A stretch of DNA of 32,000 nt from positions 210,001-242,000 of the forward strand of contig NC_013202.1 in the NCBI RefSeq assembly GCF_000023965.1, written 5' to 3'. Made by a program: the position numbers and the translations under genes. Source of the DNA: Halomicrobium mukohataei DSM 12286 (GTDB taxonomy: Archaea > Halobacteriota > Halobacteria > Halobacteriales > Haloarculaceae). This document shows positions 11,518 to 23,058 of the stretch, one piece after another. The number at the start of each line of letters is the position of its first letter. The stretch's first letter is position 1. Under the pieces are notes generated by a model. That model did not search any database. It was not told the origin of the DNA and was given only the letters and a program-made list of their open reading frames with translations.

Positions 11518-11545
11518 CGCCACTTCGGGGAGGTGGCTTTTTCAG
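11518..11545 (+). promoter_or_regulatory. Palindrome GCCAC-N9-GTGGC followed by a CTTTTTCA TATA-like box for the usp gene
   Basis: The T5 run (11538-11542) lies 26-30 nt upstream of the ATG at 11568, suggesting a leaderless transcript. Confidence 0.4.
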
Positions 11546-11567
11546 GAGTGCCTGCATTGAGCCGTCT

Positions 11568-11936
11568 ATGCACGTCCTACTCGGAGTCGGGGGCAGCGAT
11601 CTCTCCTATCAGGCCCTCGACGAGACGATCGAACGAGCACGCGAGGCCGGCGACGAGGTGACCGTCGCCGTCTTCGACGGCCACGAGACAGACGCGGGCG
11701 GAGACGAAGTCCAGGAACGGGTCCGCGAGCGGCTCGACGAGACCGGCTTCGAGGCCGAGATCAGACTGCTCAGCGGCGATCCGGGAAGTCGACTCGTCGA
11801 CGTCGCCGAGAGCGAGGGGTTCGACCGGATCGTCCTGGGCAGCGGCGAGCGGTCGACGCTGGGCAAGATCCAGCTCGGTTCGATCGCCGAGTTCGTCCTG
11901 CTGAACGCACAGACCCCGGTGACGCTGATCCGATGA
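11568..11936 (+). CDS. Universal stress protein (UspA family)
   Basis: 122 aa starting at MHVLLGVGGSD. The C-terminal G..G(x9)GS-type motif (VLGSGERSTLGKIQLGSIAEFV) is typical of Usp domains. Confidence 0.8.
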   Translation: MHVLLGVGGSDLSYQALDETIERAREAGDEVTVAVFDGHETDAGGDEVQERVRERLDETGFEAEIRLLSGDPGSRLVDVAESEGFDRIVLGSGERSTLGKIQLGSIAEFVLLNAQTPVTLIR

Positions 11937-12457
11937 CGCGACGCTATCCAGACGAGCCGGCCGGTACGTTCCCGGCACCGCCCCGCCAGGTGACCGACCG
12001 TGAGGGCCGTTCGATCCAGTTGCGACGCGCGGACGCCACCGACCGGACGGCGCTGATCGAGATGTACAAGCAGTTCGATCCCGCCGACCGCGCCCAGGGC
12101 ATCCCGCCGGCCCGCGAGACGGCCATCGAGCGGTGGCTGGAGAACATCCTCGATACGGACCGGTACAACGTCGTCGCGAGCCACGAGGGCGATCTGGTCG
12201 GCCACGCGACGCTGGTCCCCGACGATGACGACGGGTACGAGCTGGCGATTTTCGTCCTCTCGGCGTACCAGGGAGCGGGAATCGGGACCGAACTCGTCGA
12301 GACGCTGCTGGGCCACGGCCAGTCCGAGGGGATCGAGCAGGTCTGGCTCACCGTCGAACGGTGGAACGATCCCGCGATCGCTCTCTACCGGAAGGTCGGC
12401 TTCGAAACGTCGAACAGCGAGCGGTTCGAGCAGGAAATGGCGATCCGGCTCGCTTGA
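11933..12457 (+). CDS. GNAT family N-acetyltransferase
   Basis: 174 aa with acetyl-CoA binding motif A (YQGAGIGTELVETLL) and a downstream ALYRKVGFE motif. Its ATG overlaps the usp TGA (ATGA). Confidence 0.85.
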   Translation: MTRRYPDEPAGTFPAPPRQVTDREGRSIQLRRADATDRTALIEMYKQFDPADRAQGIPPARETAIERWLENILDTDRYNVVASHEGDLVGHATLVPDDDDGYELAIFVLSAYQGAGIGTELVETLLGHGQSEGIEQVWLTVERWNDPAIALYRKVGFETSNSERFEQEMAIRLA

Positions 12458-12714
12458 CCCACGCCGGATCGGTGGAGATGTCGATCCGGCTCGCTTGACT
12501 CACGCCGGATCGGTGGAGATGTCGATCCGGCTCGCTTGACTCACGCCGGATCGGTGGAGATGTCGATCCGGCTCGCTTGACTCACGCCGGATCGGTGGAG
12601 ATGTCGATCCGGCTCGCTTGACTCACGCCGGATCGGTGGAGATGTCGATCCGGCTCGCTTGACTCACGCCGGATCGGTGGAGATGTCGATCCGGCTCGCT
12701 TGACTCACGCCGGA
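12434..12714. repeat. 41-bp direct tandem repeat, 6 full copies plus one 28-nt copy
   Basis: Unit cgatccggctcgcttgactcacgccggatcggtggagatgt starts at 12441, 12482, 12523, 12564, 12605, 12646 and 12687. Copies 2-7 are identical. Copy 1 (one mismatch) is the end of the GNAT ORF. Confidence 0.97.
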
Positions 12715-12719
12715 GCCGC

Positions 12720-13166
12720 CTAGACGGAGAGTACGGGCTGGCTGGCGTACTCGATGACGTACAGCGCCGCGCGGCCGATCGCGTCCACCGAGTCGTCGCT
12801 GCCCGGCTCGCGGGGGACGACGATGAAGTCGGCGTCGAGATCCTCTGCCACGTCGAGAATGACGCTTCCCGGGGACTGGCGGAGCCGCGTCGGCGAGAAG
12901 CCGGCGGCGGTCGAGTGGTTCAGTCCGGCCTCGTGGCCCCGGTCGTCGAGTCGGGACTGCATCTCGGCTGCGAAGACCTGATGCTGGTCGGCGATCGCGT
13001 CGGCGTCGACCTCGTCGGCCTCGATCGCGCGAATCAGCGTCTCGTCGAGGACAAAGAGGAGGTGGATCTCGGCGTCGTAGGCGTCGGCGATGGCCAGCGC
13101 GTACTCGACGGCCGCCTCGGACTGATTGGAGCCGTCCACCGGCGCGAGCACGAGGTCGATGTCCAT
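12720..13166 (-). CDS. Universal stress protein family protein (degenerate ATP-binding motif)
   Basis: 148 aa from the internal ATG (MDIDLVLAPVDGSNQSEAAVEYAL...) of the 12720..13514 ORF. It has Usp-like N-terminal and C-terminal (PVLSV) regions. Confidence 0.75.
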   Translation of the reverse strand: MDIDLVLAPVDGSNQSEAAVEYALAIADAYDAEIHLLFVLDETLIRAIEADEVDADAIADQHQVFAAEMQSRLDDRGHEAGLNHSTAAGFSPTRLRQSPGSVILDVAEDLDADFIVVPREPGSDDSVDAIGRAALYVIEYASQPVLSV

Positions 13167-13732: not shown

Positions 13733-14812
13733 ATGGACGACTGGCTCATCGACGACGAGCGGCTCTCGCTGGAGCGGAAATCGATCCTCCCGGGGGAGGG
13801 ATTCTTCCTCCCGGACTCGATCGAAGAGGAAGAGCAGGAACGCGAGGCCGCCGAGCAGATGGAATCGACCGAGGTCGTCGTCATCGCCGACCCGGACGCC
13901 GACGGGCTGGCCTGCGTCGCGCTCGTTCGCGAGGCGCTTGGCTCGGGATCGCTGGTCCCCGCCGGTCCGCACGAACTCGACGAGGCGCTCGAATGGGCCG
14001 CCGAGTACGTCGAGGCCGACGCCACGCTGGTGATCTGTGATCTCTGTCCCGACAGCGAGAGCGACATCGCCGCTCTCGACGACCTGACCGCTCGCGTCGA
14101 CGACGTGCGCTGGTACGACCACCACCAGTGGAACGAGGACCTCGGCGCGGCGGTCGACGACAGCGGCGTCGACCGTACCGTCGGCGACTCCGACGAGGTC
14201 TGTACCGCGGACGTGGCCCTCGCACAGCTGGAGTACGACTTCGACGACCGTTTCGCCGAACTCGCCGCCGTCACGCGAGACCACGACCTCTGGATCCGCG
14301 ACGACGAGCGCAGCGACGACCTGGCGGACCTGAGCTACTGGATCGAGCCCGAAGAGTACATCGAGGCCGTCCTCGAACACGGCCCCGACCTCTCGCCGGA
14401 GTGGCACGAGTTCATCGAGGAGAAGCGCGTCGAGAAAGAGGCCCTCATCGAGAAGGCCGTCGAGCGCGCCCAGCTGCGCGACGTGGGCGAGTGGACCGTC
14501 GGCGTCACCTACGGCCGCTGCTCCCAGAACGAGGTCGCCGAGGCCCTCCGCGAGCAGGGTGCCGACGCCGCCGTCATCGTCAAGCCCGCCGGCTCGGCCT
14601 CGATTCGGGGCACCGAGACCTTCGAGCGCTGCCACGAGGTCGCCGCCCAGGTCAACGGCGGCGGCCACCCCCGCGCTGCGGGGTGCAAGCCCGACGTGTA
14701 CGACGACATGCTCGACTACGCCCATCACTGGAGTACTCGCGGTGCGGTGGCGAAGCAGGCCATCGTGGACGCGTTCAAGAGACTACCCGAAGAGCCAGAA
14801 GCGGCGGAGTAG
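13733..14812 (+). CDS. DHH/DHHA1 family phosphoesterase (RecJ-like)
   Basis: 359 aa with DHH motifs IADPDADG and YDHHQW, and the DHHA1 motif GGGHPRAAG. Confidence 0.85.
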   Translation: MDDWLIDDERLSLERKSILPGEGFFLPDSIEEEEQEREAAEQMESTEVVVIADPDADGLACVALVREALGSGSLVPAGPHELDEALEWAAEYVEADATLVICDLCPDSESDIAALDDLTARVDDVRWYDHHQWNEDLGAAVDDSGVDRTVGDSDEVCTADVALAQLEYDFDDRFAELAAVTRDHDLWIRDDERSDDLADLSYWIEPEEYIEAVLEHGPDLSPEWHEFIEEKRVEKEALIEKAVERAQLRDVGEWTVGVTYGRCSQNEVAEALREQGADAAVIVKPAGSASIRGTETFERCHEVAAQVNGGGHPRAAGCKPDVYDDMLDYAHHWSTRGAVAKQAIVDAFKRLPEEPEAAE

Positions 14813-20969: not shown

Positions 20970-21413
20970 TCAGACCACCTCCGTCGTCGTCGCCGTGTCG
21001 GCGACGCCGGTGCCGGAGACGACCTTGACGCGCCCCGGATCGTCGTCGAGCGCCGTCACGGTGATCGTCAGCTGCTCCTGTGGGAGCCACAGATCGGTGT
21101 CATCGTCGCCACCGACCGACGTGTCGTACCCCGACTGGTAGCTGTTGTCGGCCAGTAGATCCACGTCGCTGACCGCCAGCGACTCGGAACCGGTGTTGTT
21201 GACCGCGACCGTCAGCGTCCGGCTGGTGGTGTTCCAGGTCGCGCTCGTCACGTCGATGGCCGTGTTCTGCTGGGCCAGGGTTCGGTCGGTCCGATCCTCC
21301 TGGGCCTCGGAGACGCGCTCGAAGCCGTTGGTCGTCGCCGTATGGAACATGCCGAAGGCGATGAACATCCCGGCGAAGACGATCGCCGCCGAGCCACTAA
21401 CGCTGAAGCCCAT
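20970..21413 (-). CDS. arlF: Archaellum stator-associated protein ArlF (FlaF)
   Basis: Starts [21 protein letters not shown], a typical FlaF N-terminus. The ATG at 21413 is preferred over the GTG at 21422. It overlaps the arlCE 3' end by 17 nt. Confidence 0.75.
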
Positions 21414-23058
21414 CGGAACCACCTCCGCGAACCAGCTTCGACAGGGCCACTGCGTCGGCCCCGCTGTCCTCGTCGAGCTGACTGATGTAGTGGAGACTCC
21501 GCGTGTGGTGGTCGATCGTCAGCCCGCCCTTGCCGCCGGACTCCTCGAAGCCACGGAGGACCTCGTGGAGGTCGTCGGCGACGGCCTCGTCGATCCAGTC
21601 GATCCGCTCGTAGTAGTCGATGGCGCGTGCGGCTTCCCGGTAGCTTGCCTGTTCGAGGAGGTATTCGAGCCACTCGACGACGATCAGGTCGCTTGCGAAG
21701 CCGCCGGGAAGCTCCGAGAGGTACGGCTTGCCCCCGTCATCCGCCGACGCGTTCGGCGTCTGCTCTAGCTCGGGTTCCGGCTCCGGTTCCGCAGTGGTCG
21801 TCGGCTCTGGTTCCGGCTCCGGTTCCGCAGTGGTCGTCGGCTCCGGCTCTGGCTCCGGTTCCGGCTCGGGCTCTGGCTCCGGTTCCAGCTCTGGCTCCGG
21901 TTCCGGTTCCGGCTCGGGCTCTGGCTCCGGTTCGCTCGCGTCCGCTTCGGCCGTGAGGTCCTCGTCGTCGTCCTCGATGACGTCGTCGAACAGATCGTCG
22001 TCCGCGAGACCGTCGAGGTCGTCGCCGTCCTCCTCGATGCCCGAGGAGAGTTCGTCGTCTTCGAGGGCCATCTCGTCGTCCCCGTCGTCCTCGTCGAGCG
22101 CCATGTCGCCGCCGGGACTGTCCTCTTCTGCCCACTCGGCGTCGCCGGAGTCGTACTCGTCTTTGAGTTCCTGAAACGATTTTCCGCCCTCCCCGTCGCC
22201 GTCGCCACCGTCGTCCATGTCCATGCTCATGTCGTCGTCCTCCTCGTCGAAGTCGCCGAGGTCGTCGCCCCCCTCGTCGAAGTCGTCGAAGTCGTCTTCG
22301 AAACTGCCGCCGTCGTCCTCGAAACCGCCGTCGTCGCTACCGTCGTCTGCAAACACGTCGTCGACGCTGTCACCGCCGCCGCCCAGATCGTCGCCGTCGT
22401 CCTCGACCAGATCCTCGTCGAAGAACCCCTCGGCGTCGGCGTTGGCGATGTCTTCGTCGATGTCCTCCTCTGTCTCGTCGTCATCGTCGTCGAAGAGGCC
22501 GAAACCGCCGCCGCCACCCATGCCGCCACCGCCGCCCATACCGGCGTCGATGTCGTCCGCGAAGGGGTTGACGCCACGGGTGACCATCTCGTAGATGTCA
22601 AGCAGCTTGCGGACGTTCTCTTCGACTTCTTCGACGGACTCGCTGATCTGCTCGTTTTCGGTCCGGACCGTGTTGACCGTCGACGACAGCGATCCGACCT
22701 CGTTTTCGAGCTCGTCGAGGCGGTGTTCGAGTTCGTCGGTGTCCTGGCCGGCGTCGTCCATGTCGCCGAACTCGTCGCCACCGAACCCGTCCATGTCGTC
22801 GCCACCCATGCCGCCGAGATCGCCGAACTCGTCGTCACCGCCGTCGTCGGCCATGAGCCCCCCGCCGTCGGCGAGTTCGTCGCCGTCGTCACCACCCGCG
22901 TCGTCCGACTCCTCGTCGTCCGAGAGAATGGAGTCGAACATGTTCTTGATGCTCATCCCGACGAGCCCGCCAGTGAGGAGAACGACGAGAGCGGGCGCGA
23001 AGATCGATCCCTCCGGGATCGCCACCTGAAGCGTCGGGAAGAGCGCAATGCTACTCAT
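21397..23058 (-). CDS. arlCE: Archaellum accessory fusion protein ArlCE (FlaC domain plus FlaD/E domain) with very long acidic low-complexity linkers
   Basis: 553 aa. It has a FlaC-like coiled coil ([58 protein letters not shown]) and a C-terminal FlaD/E-like domain ([24 protein letters not shown]...[12 protein letters not shown]). D/E/G-rich and (EP)n tracts lie between them. Confidence 0.8.
21766..21933 (-). repeat. In-frame coding repeat: 6-nt (GGYTCN)n tract encoding (EP)n, with a 36-bp tandem duplication
   Basis: ggttccggctccggttccgcagtggtcgtcggctc occurs at about 21773 and again at about 21809 (period 36). The tract encodes [12 protein letters not shown] twice, embedded in 56 residues of EP/EL repeats. 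Confidence 0.9.

What the first reader, a model, noticed from the sequence alone, without database searches (positions are those of the whole stretch)
12434..12714. Near-perfect 41-bp tandem array (6.7 copies) derived from the 3' end of the GNAT gene, filling the whole gap between convergent genes
The unit cgatccggctcgcttgactcacgccggatcggtggagatgt starts at 12441, 12482, 12523, 12564, 12605, 12646 and 12687. The last copy is cut after 28 nt at 12714, only 5 nt before the stop codon of the convergent usp gene. Copies 2-7 are identical to each other. Copy 1 differs by one base (gaccc versus gactc) and is the authentic end of the acetyltransferase ORF (..EMAIRLA*), with similarity running about 7 nt further upstream (gaaatgg versus gagatgt). 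The array therefore arose by repeated duplication of the last six codons, the stop and about 20 nt of 3' flank. Every later unit keeps a relic mini-ORF ATG-TCG-ATC-CGG-CTC-GCT-TGA (MSIRLA*). Each unit carries the dyad GATCCGGC-N13-GCCGGATC, and the next unit supplies the complementary half after N12. The array is thus an unbroken chain of 14 alternately oriented GATC-containing 8-mers spaced about 20-21 bp (roughly two helical turns), able to fold into alternative hairpins on either strand. The period is not a multiple of 3 and each unit has one TGA on each strand, so all six frames are closed. The near-zero divergence implies very recent expansion or continuing homogenisation. Plausible roles are a multi-hairpin bidirectional terminator or insulator between convergent genes, a phased protein-binding array (iteron- or centromere-like), or a hypervariable slippage locus.
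Basis: seen in the sequence. Interest (0 to 1): 0.75.

Follow-up and report, generated by a model that had tools for sequence, protein, structure and literature searches.

The report
Variable 41-bp hairpin repeat array
This is a run of nearly identical 41-base repeats copied from the tail of an acetyltransferase gene plus the hairpin just behind it; its copy number runs from 1 to about 7 among closely related Halomicrobium strains, so it is an ordinary hypervariable minisatellite that may also stack terminator-like hairpins between two convergent genes.

Summary
The array is real: window 12433-12714, period 41, 6.9 copies, copies 2-7 identical. The window is Halomicrobium mukohataei-type chromosome and matches CP045142.1 exactly over 10.5 kb. 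The GNAT C-terminus (FExEM[A/S/G]IRL) is conserved across Haloarculaceae, so the unit was copied from the gene's last six codons, its stop codon and a downstream stem-loop.

The same locus has different copy numbers in relatives: 6.7 (window), 4.6 (CP168057), 3.7 (LC1Hm), 2.7 (H. katesii), 2.7 and 1.7 (metagenomes) and 1 (KBTZ05). Differences are whole 41-bp steps, even between genomes at least 99% identical in the flanks. Units are identical within a genome but differ between genomes.

More distant lineages keep 1.4-1.9 decayed copies. Haloarcula has none, and its two genes overlap.

No copy was found elsewhere (window, related loci, metagenomes, viral contigs, plasmids, phages), and Rfam gave no match.

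The 9-bp stem enclosing the GNAT stop codon stays paired in five lineages, with two compensated positions and one G-U that pairs only on the + strand RNA. The hairpin may therefore be a functional 3' stem-loop.

Verdict: a hypervariable minisatellite, a new member of a known kind. A terminator role is possible but untested and not dose-critical.

The parts
11568..11936 (+). usp gene (122 aa, PF00582), first gene of the usp-GNAT operon. Its stop overlaps the GNAT start (ATGA).
11933..12457 (+). GNAT N-acetyltransferase gene (174 aa). Its last six codons and stop (12437-12457) form the 5' part of repeat copy 1.
12433..12714 (.). 41-bp tandem array of 6.7-6.9 copies. It is a polymorphic minisatellite.
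12441..12481 (+). Copy 1, the founder copy (atgG / gacC variant). It holds the authentic GNAT C-terminal codons and stop.
12482..12686 (+). Copies 2-6, five identical 41-bp units (atgT / gacT variant), each with a relic ATG-TCG-ATC-CGG-CTC-GCT-TGA.
12687..12714 (+). Copy 7, truncated after 28 nt. The 3' arm is cut to GCCGGA.
12441..12471 (+). Founder stem-loop: 9-bp stem CGATCCGGC/GCCGGATCG with a 13-nt loop that holds the GNAT stop codon. Predicted -15.3 kcal/mol as RNA. The stem is kept by compensatory changes in other lineages.
12482..12676 (+). Five further copies of the same stem-loop (arms at 12482/12504, 12523/12545, 12564/12586, 12605/12627, 12646/12668). The alternative inter-unit hairpins (10-nt loop) are about as stable.
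12715..12719 (.). 5-nt non-repeat junction (gccgc) between the array and the Usp stop codon.
12720..13166 (-). Convergent usp gene (148 aa, PF00582).

Best explanation
This is a hypervariable minisatellite (VNTR). An ancestor of the Halomicrobium mukohataei / katesii / LC1Hm clade duplicated a 41-bp segment. That segment held the last six codons and stop of the GNAT gene plus the stem-loop just downstream (shown). The resulting direct repeat has since expanded and contracted in whole-unit steps (shown). The likely mechanisms are replication slippage or unequal homologous recombination and gene conversion between the many genome copies of a polyploid haloarchaeon, probably helped by stable hairpins in single-stranded DNA (inferred). 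The same processes keep units identical within a genome. Every unit carries its own stop codon, so copy-number change never alters the GNAT protein. It changes only the length and hairpin content of the spacer between the convergent genes. The founder hairpin encloses the GNAT stop codon and is probably a functional 3' stem-loop of the usp-GNAT mRNA, acting in termination or 3'-end protection (inferred from covariation). The multiplication itself is most likely a nearly neutral by-product with at most a weak, dose-insensitive effect.
For: Copy number differs at the orthologous locus.
- Window, identical to CP045142.1: 6.7 copies.
- CP168057.1: 4.6 copies; KBTZ05: 1 copy. These two share the identical GNAT protein and right flank, and their gaps of 197 and 33 bp differ by exactly 4 x 41.
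- LC1Hm: 3.7 copies, gap 129 bp.
- H. katesii: 2.7 copies.
- Metagenome contigs of the LC1Hm type: 2.7 and 1.7 copies, gaps 88 and 47 bp.

Genomes 99.1-100% identical in the flanking genes differ by 1-4 units.

Evolution is concerted: units are identical within each genome, but atgG/T, gacC/T, ccggA/G and ggTG/GA variants are fixed between genomes.

The unit derives from the gene, because the C-terminus is conserved family-wide. Lineages with about 83-85% flanking-gene nucleotide identity to the window (GNAT protein 87-90% identical) keep 1.4-1.9 decayed copies. Lineages with 80-81% GNAT protein identity, and Haloarcula, have none, and in Haloarcula the two stop codons overlap.

The locus is unique. 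The hairpin motif occurs only here in the window and in related loci. All three metagenome hits are this locus. Viral contigs, plasmids and phages gave no hit, and Rfam gave none.

The stem is 100% paired in five lineages, with two fully compensated positions and one U-A to U-G change. The G-U costs 0.6 kcal/mol on the + strand RNA, against an A-C mismatch on the - strand.

Hairpins are stable in ssDNA at about -10 kcal/mol.

Polyploidy and efficient gene conversion in haloarchaea are described in PMC4056108 and PMC8223754.
Against: No transcript, 3'-end or binding data exist, so neutrality of copy number is inferred only from its variability. Copy numbers in short-read metagenome contigs (L004, L130) could be under-assembled. 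The single-copy KBTZ05 allele comes from one draft assembly and could be a collapse, although it sits on a 3.3-Mb contig. Several lineages let the array fill the spacer right up to the Usp stop, and unrelated lineages carry other strong hairpins at the same position (L140 z = -4.9, L132 z = -2.4 on the + strand). Both hint that structured spacer DNA here may be favoured. Ploidy and recombination were not measured in Halomicrobium.
Confidence: 0.66

Rival explanations
1. The array is a functional multi-hairpin transcription terminator or insulator. Each unit's stem-loop acts as a T-tract-independent, structure-type termination or 3'-end-protection signal for the usp-GNAT mRNA, and in mirror image for the convergent usp mRNA. 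Stacking the units makes termination near-complete and limits antisense overlap. Copy number tunes this effect.
For: The stem is conserved by compensatory changes, and its one wobble pairs only on the + strand RNA. No T-run exists anywhere between the two genes, so a canonical archaeal T-stretch terminator is absent. In Haloferax volcanii, hairpins lie upstream of 503 mapped termination sites, and one tested hairpin terminated 59% of transcripts in vivo (PMC7237163). Other lineages have unrelated strong hairpins or two hairpins plus T5 in the same spacer. Hairpin clusters have been proposed as terminators in bacteria (PMC8355165, title and abstract only).
Against: Copy number ranges from 1 to 6.7 among near-identical genomes, and KBTZ05 has lost the 3' arm entirely, so dose is not under visible constraint. 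Haloarcula relatives have zero spacer and overlapping stops. The compensatory changes can also arise mutationally, by quasipalindrome correction through template switching (PMC7202029, PMC8604942). Only five lineages were compared, and 13 of 500 shuffles reached the observed score. The whole-array + strand fold is no better than shuffles (z = -0.85).
Confidence: 0.22
2. The array is a phased protein-binding site (iteron-, centromere- or operator-like). GATC-containing 8/9-mers in alternating orientation every 20-21 bp would recruit a dimeric DNA-binding protein cooperatively.
For: 13 regularly spaced, alternately oriented GATCCGGC sites occur in the array, against about 4 expected in the whole 32-kb window. 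Spacing is close to two helical turns (sequence).
Against: The spacing and the GATC follow from duplicating one hairpin whose 5' arm is the Ile-Arg codons ATC-CGG. No replication, partition, integrase or regulator gene is nearby; the neighbours are Usp, a peptide ABC transporter and archaellum/Che genes. The locus is unique with no second array. Site number varies from 1 to 13 among near-identical strains.
Confidence: 0.03
3. The array is a member of a dispersed or mobile repeat family (REP/BIME-like, MITE-like) or a degenerate CRISPR-like array.
For: The units are palindromic and sit at the 3' ends of convergent genes, which resembles REP/BIME clusters. The repeats are regular and have a palindromic core.
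Against: The unit is the flanking gene's own 3' end. There are no unique spacers, and no cas, RAYT or transposase gene next to the array in the window. No copies occur elsewhere in the window, related loci, metagenomes, viral contigs, plasmids or phages.
Confidence: 0.03
4. The array is an assembly artefact: a single or double copy inflated by the assembler.
For: Perfect repeats are hard to assemble, and the short-read contigs break at this array.
Against: Arrays of at least 2.7 copies appear in four independent isolate assemblies, with lineage-specific unit variants and different right junctions. The Logan contig end-points show that the raw reads contain a repeated unit with both variants.
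Confidence: 0.03

Closest known systems
Prokaryotic VNTR / minisatellite loci, e.g. MIRU-VNTR of Mycobacterium tuberculosis (own knowledge: Supply et al. 1997, 2000)
   Same: The units are 40-100 bp, head-to-tail and intergenic. Copy number differs among closely related strains in whole-unit steps. Units carry short ORFs and stop codons that overlap the end of the flanking gene. Slippage or unequal recombination is the accepted mechanism.
   Different: MIRUs are a dispersed family of about 40 loci lying between co-directional genes of operons. This is a single locus whose unit is visibly the 3' end of its own flanking gene. It lies between convergent genes, and each unit is a strong hairpin.
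Perfect tandem repeats of Borg elements of Methanoperedens (bioRxiv 10.1101/2022.05.18.492195)
   Same: These are archaeal, perfect and recently formed tandem repeats that evolve fast. [quoted passage not shown]
   Different: Borg repeats are A-rich, pervasive across the element and have no uniform secondary structure. Here there is one GC-rich hairpin unit at one chromosomal locus, with a traceable founder copy.
REP / BIME palindromic clusters of enterobacteria (own knowledge)
   Same: They are clusters of alternately oriented palindromic units downstream of genes, often between convergent genes, and act as mRNA 3'-end stabilisers and weak terminators.
   Different: REPs occur in hundreds of dispersed copies mobilised by RAYT transposases. 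No dispersal was found for this unit in what could be searched, and no transposase lies next to the array. The unit is a local gene-end duplication.
Structure-type termination signals in Haloferax volcanii (PMC7237163) and hairpin clusters as terminators in bacteria (PMC8355165)
   Same: A stable hairpin lies directly downstream of, and here around, the stop codon, with no T-stretch. Several hairpins stand in series.
   Different: No 3'-end mapping exists for this locus. The Haloferax S12 hairpin shares no sequence with it. Here the copies arose from one another by recent duplication and vary in number.

Membership tests
VNTR / minisatellite | Head-to-tail tandem copies of a 10-100 bp unit | tested here: met
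   Period 41, 6.9 copies, 98% matches; exact in-register copies.
VNTR / minisatellite | Copy number differs at the orthologous locus among strains, in whole-unit steps | tested here: met
   1, 1.7, 2.7, 3.7, 4.6 and 6.7 copies. Gaps of 33 versus 197 bp differ by 4 x 41, and gaps of 47, 88 and 129 bp rise in steps of 41.
VNTR / minisatellite | Copy number changes faster than point substitution in the flanks | tested here: met
   Genomes 99.1-100% identical in the flanking genes differ by 1-4 units.
Archaeal intrinsic terminator (T-stretch type) | Run of at least 4-5 T on the transcribed strand downstream of the gene | tested here: not met
   No run longer than TT on either strand of the array. 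The scan found no hairpin-plus-T site in 12300-12800.
Haloarchaeal structure-type terminator (hairpin upstream of a mapped 3' end, PMC7237163) | Stable conserved hairpin at the gene's 3' end | tested here: met
   Predicted -15.3 kcal/mol, z = -4.3. Stem 100% paired in five lineages, with two compensated pairs and one G-U.
Haloarchaeal structure-type terminator (hairpin upstream of a mapped 3' end, PMC7237163) | RNA 3' ends mapped within about 10 nt downstream of the hairpin, or termination in a reporter | not testable with these tools
   No transcriptome data were available.
CRISPR array | Repeats separated by unique spacers of similar length; leader and cas genes | tested here: not met
   The sequence between dyads is itself invariant, so the whole 41 bp repeats. 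No cas genes occur in the window.
REP/BIME or MITE-like dispersed palindromic elements | Many copies dispersed at unrelated loci | tested here: inconclusive
   None in the 32-kb window or related loci. All three metagenome hits are this locus. None in viral contigs, plasmids or phages. The full genome was not scanned, because one search was wasted.
Iteron / centromere (parS-like) array | Adjacent replication-initiator or partition genes, and a conserved number of sites | tested here: not met
   The neighbours are Usp, GNAT, an ABC transporter, DUFs and archaellum genes. Site number varies from 1 to 13.
Any Rfam RNA family | Match at or above the gathering score | tested here: not met
   No hits at gathering score. 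The best permissive hit was Magnesium-II at 19.4 bits against a cutoff of 40.

The most novel reading that the evidence does not exclude
The stem-loop enclosing the GNAT stop codon is a genuine T-tract-independent hairpin terminator or 3'-end protector in a haloarchaeon. Tandem amplification has built spacer DNA from nothing between two convergent genes that ancestrally overlapped. That would give a tunable, bidirectional multi-hairpin insulator. Its natural allelic series (1, 1.7, 2.7, 3.7, 4.6 and 6.7 units in culturable strains) could be used to measure hairpin-dependent termination in Archaea.
Probability: 0.2. Interest if true: 0.55.

Novelty: new member of a known kind. Interest (0 to 1): 0.3.

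Why it matters
The finding has three modest uses.

1. It is a ready strain-typing marker for Halomicrobium. It is also a warning that this locus breaks or collapses short-read assemblies.

2. It is an unusually clean example of how a minisatellite is born. The founder copy, the decayed 1.4-1.9-copy intermediates and the overlapping-gene ancestral state are all still visible. It shows intergenic DNA between convergent genes being created entirely by duplication of a gene end.

3. If the conserved stop-codon-enclosing hairpin is a terminator, the natural 1-to-7-copy series in cultivable strains would be a convenient system for testing structure-dependent termination in Archaea, which is still poorly understood.

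Tried and rejected
- **Wasted genome scan:** This used the only scan, so the complete Halomicrobium genome could not be searched for other arrays.
- **Rfam:** nothing at gathering score. The permissive search gave only a 19-bit Magnesium-II hit, which is noise.
- **Mobile-element origin:** viral contigs, plasmids and phages gave no matches, so this reading was dropped.
- **Promoter/terminator scan:** it found nothing in the array. Its one hit, at 11519, is more likely a promoter TATA element.
- **Whole-array RNA fold:** the + strand is no better than shuffles (z = -0.85) and the - strand gives z = -3.5. This is not informative, because shuffles of a GC-rich repeat also fold well. The single-unit folds tell more.
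- **CRISPR reading:** rejected, because there are no unique spacers.
- **AGATC termination motif of Haloferax:** absent from the unit, which holds only GGATC, CGATC and AGATG.
- **Mini-ORF MSIRLA:** treated as a relic. The GGAG directly abuts the ATG with no spacing, the peptide is six residues, and the ORF is simply the copied gene end.
- **Other H. mukohataei assemblies:** the tool collapses places with the same neighbouring genes, so the other assemblies carrying the identical GNAT (ACV46359, QCD64914) could not be viewed.

Full report
**1. Observation**

The array is in the sequence as described. Tandem Repeats Finder reports 12433-12714, period 41, 6.9 copies, 98% matches and score 543. 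It is by far the strongest repeat in the 32-kb window. The 41-mer CGATCCGGCTCGCTTGACTCACGCCGGATCGGTGGAGATGT matches at 12441 with one mismatch, and at 12482, 12523, 12564, 12605 and 12646 with none. None of 100 shuffles gave a match. A 28-nt partial seventh copy ends at 12714. Five bases then separate it from the TAG stop (12720-12722, minus strand) of a 148-aa Usp gene.

Copy 1 holds the last six codons and the TGA of a 174-aa GNAT acetyltransferase at 11933-12457. Each unit has a 9-bp inverted repeat, CGATCCGGC/GCCGGATCG, with a 13-nt loop. The next unit supplies a second possible partner 10 nt further on.

One detail needs correcting. There are 13 complete GATCCGGC octamers, not 14, because the last one is cut.

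**2. Source and reality of the repeat**

The GNAT protein is identical to ACV46359.1, QCD64914.1 and QFR19720.1 of Halomicrobium mukohataei. The window matches CP045142.1 exactly over 10,525 nt, array included.

Four k=31 Logan contigs from independent sequencing runs (L002, L003, L144, L147) stop at the last 31-mer that still contains the base specific to copy 1. That is where a de Bruijn graph must break on entering a repeat. The repeat is therefore in the reads and was not invented by one assembler.

**3. Origin**

About 20 homologues across Haloarculaceae end in ...FExEM[A/S/G]IRL(A). The gene end is therefore ancestral and the repeat was copied from it. The orthologous spacer forms a series.

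| Lineage (GNAT protein identity to window) | GNAT-Usp spacer |
|---|---|
| Haloarcula pelagica, and a second 74%-identical lineage | The two stop codons overlap (gap -4); no repeat |
| 80-81% lineages | 23 or 77 bp; no repeat and no such hairpin |
| 87-90% lineages (L132, L139, L006) | Founder unit plus a decayed second copy (1.4-1.9 copies, periods 39-42), followed by unrelated sequence |
| H. mukohataei / katesii / LC1Hm clade (at least 95% flanking-gene nucleotide identity) | Perfect 41-bp arrays |

**4. Polymorphism**

| Genome or contig | Copies |
|---|---|
| Window / CP045142 | 6.7 |
| CP168057.1 | 4.6 |
| Halomicrobium sp. LC1Hm, CP044129 | 3.7 |
| H. katesii, KB905378 | 2.7 |
| Metagenome contig L130 (LC1Hm type) | 2.7 |
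| Metagenome scaffold L004 (encodes the identical LC1Hm GNAT) | 1.7 |
| Halomicrobium sp. HM KBTZ05 | 1 |

- KBTZ05 and CP168057 share the identical GNAT protein and right flank. Their spacers of 33 and 197 bp differ by exactly 4 x 41.
- The repeat unit contains sequence (GCCGGATCGGGAGAG) that KBTZ05 lacks. KBTZ05 is therefore a contraction, not the ancestral state.
- Flanking genes are 99.5/99.3% identical between KBTZ05 and CP168057. They are 99.7/100% identical between LC1Hm (3.7 copies) and L004 (1.7 copies). Copy number therefore changes much faster than point substitution.
- Units are identical within each genome. Variants atgG/T, gacC/T, ccggA/G and ggTG/GA are fixed between genomes, and their order within arrays differs: T,G; T,T,G; T,G,T,T; G,T,T,T,T,T,T. 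This is the signature of concerted evolution by slippage or unequal exchange.
- The right-hand junction differs in every lineage. In three lineages the array runs to within 0-5 nt of the Usp stop.

Caveat: copy numbers in short-read metagenome contigs may be under-assembled, and KBTZ05 is a single draft assembly.

**5. Uniqueness**

- The relaxed hairpin motif ATCCGRC-N10-16-GYCGGRT occurs only in the array within the window, with 0.16 expected by chance. Among fetched loci it occurs only at this locus in related genomes, apart from two chance hits in unrelated bacteria.
- A 30-nt degenerate junction pattern found three metagenome contigs, all at this same locus.
- Viral contigs, plasmids and phages gave nothing, and Rfam gave nothing.
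- The neighbourhood is ordinary chromosome: a peptide ABC transporter, DUF5806, usp-GNAT, two more usp genes, DUF5807, and archaellum and CheC genes. There are no rep, par, orc, cas, RAYT or integrase genes.
- The whole genome could not be scanned, because my one genome-contig scan used a pattern that was too short.

**6. The hairpin**

A single unit folds to -15.3 kcal/mol as + strand RNA (z = -4.3) and to about -10 kcal/mol as ssDNA. The alternative inter-unit hairpin is equally stable at -16.8 kcal/mol.

Across five lineages all 45 stem cells pair.

| Lineage | 5' arm / 3' arm | Comment |
|---|---|---|
| Window and L006 | CGATCCGGC / GCCGGATCG | Reference stem |
| L139 | CGATCCGAC / GTCGGATCG | One compensated pair |
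| L132 | CCATCCGAC / GTCGGATGG | Two compensated pairs; the 5'-arm changes are synonymous third positions of Ser and Arg codons |
| LC1Hm | CGATCCGGC / GCCGGGTCG | U-G on the + strand RNA, but an A-C mismatch on the - strand (-14.7 versus -13.8 kcal/mol) |

In L132 the 3' arm matches the first, coding 5' arm and not the second copy. The conserved structure is therefore the loop that encloses the GNAT stop codon. The loops and 3' flanks vary freely.

This suggests constraint on a + strand RNA stem-loop. The evidence is thin: five sequences, with 13 of 500 shuffles reaching the observed score. Template-switch "quasipalindrome correction" can also produce matched arm changes without selection (PMC7202029, PMC8604942).

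**7. Mechanism**

Shown: the unit derives from the gene end, changes occur in whole units, evolution is concerted, expansion is recent, and the locus is unique.

Inferred: expansion and contraction occur by replication slippage, or by unequal recombination and gene conversion among genome copies. Haloarchaea are polyploid and equalise copies efficiently (PMC4056108, PMC8223754). Hairpins in ssDNA probably promote polymerase stalling. Every unit carries its own stop codon, so the GNAT protein is unaffected. Only one residue varies with the founder-unit variant (A or S).

Function: no T-stretch exists between the two genes. In Haloferax volcanii, T-stretches are the main intergenic signal. However, hairpins lie upstream of 503 mapped 3' ends there, and one tested hairpin gave 59% termination in vivo (PMC7237163). 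Other lineages carry unrelated strong hairpins in the same spacer: L140 has a 14-bp stem (z about -5), and L132 has two hairpins followed by T5. A terminator or 3'-protection role for the founder hairpin is therefore plausible. Stacking hairpins could add up.

Copy number is unconstrained, however, and one strain has lost the 3' arm. I therefore rank [quoted passage not shown] first (0.66). I rank "selected multi-hairpin terminator or insulator" second (0.22). Protein-binding array, dispersed element and assembly artefact each get about 0.03.

**8. Comparison and novelty**

The array meets all three tested criteria for a VNTR or minisatellite. It fails the tests for a T-stretch terminator, CRISPR, an iteron or centromere, and any Rfam family. 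The test for dispersed REP-like status is negative as far as it could be run.

The closest analogues are MIRU-VNTRs (unit size, intergenic position, overlapping mini-ORFs) and the perfect tandem repeats of Borgs (archaeal, recent, seeded by partial repeats, able to start within an ORF end). It differs from both in being a single locus whose founder copy, intermediates and pre-duplication state can all still be seen. Its unit is also a conserved hairpin.

Nine papers in the held library mention both Halomicrobium and "tandem repeat", and judging by their titles and abstracts none is about this locus.

It is a new member of a known kind. Interest is modest at 0.3.

Noticed in passing
window 11519-11546 (+): The only bacterial-type 'hairpin + T5' hit lies in the divergent DUF5806/usp intergenic region. 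Its T5 (11538-11542) is 26-30 nt upstream of the usp ATG at 11568. It is more likely the TATA-like box of a leaderless usp-GNAT transcript than a terminator.
   Followed up: partly
window 21768-22368 (within ORF 21397-23058, - strand): Several in-frame tandem repeats (periods 6, 24, 36, 30 and 21) lie inside a 553-aa, 34% acidic protein with FlaC and Arch_fla_DE domains (an ArlC/D/E fusion) in an archaellum/CheC cluster.
   Followed up: partly
L140 1535-1611: In an 80%-identical GNAT lineage, the whole 77-bp GNAT/Usp spacer is one long hairpin with a 14-bp stem (TAGTGACTGTTGTA...TACAACAGTCACTA; z = -4.9 and -5.6). It is unrelated in sequence to the 41-bp unit. Structured spacers recur between this convergent gene pair.
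   Followed up: partly
L139 1501-1543: In one lineage the GNAT stop codon inside the hairpin loop is lost. The ORF reads through the loop and 3' arm, giving a 180-aa protein ending ...EMAIRLLPPTSDR*, while the stem stays compensated (CGATCCGAC/GTCGGATCG).
   Followed up: partly
L138 2022-2025 and L141 1522-1525: In Haloarcula pelagica and a related metagenome lineage, the convergent GNAT and Usp genes overlap by 4 nt at their stop codons. Zero intergenic DNA is therefore the likely ancestral arrangement.
   Followed up: partly
L146 1-101 and L147 1-101: Strain CP168057 has a DDE_Tnp_1 transposase gene about 1.4 kb upstream of the GNAT gene, beyond DUF5806. The near-identical KBTZ05 has DUF7529 at that position, so the two strains also differ by a local insertion-sequence event.
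   Followed up: no
window 13733-14812 (+): A conserved 359-aa, 25% acidic ORF downstream of the usp pair has no Pfam match at E <= 0.001, although it is syntenic in all Halomicrobium and Haloarcula loci examined.
   Followed up: no
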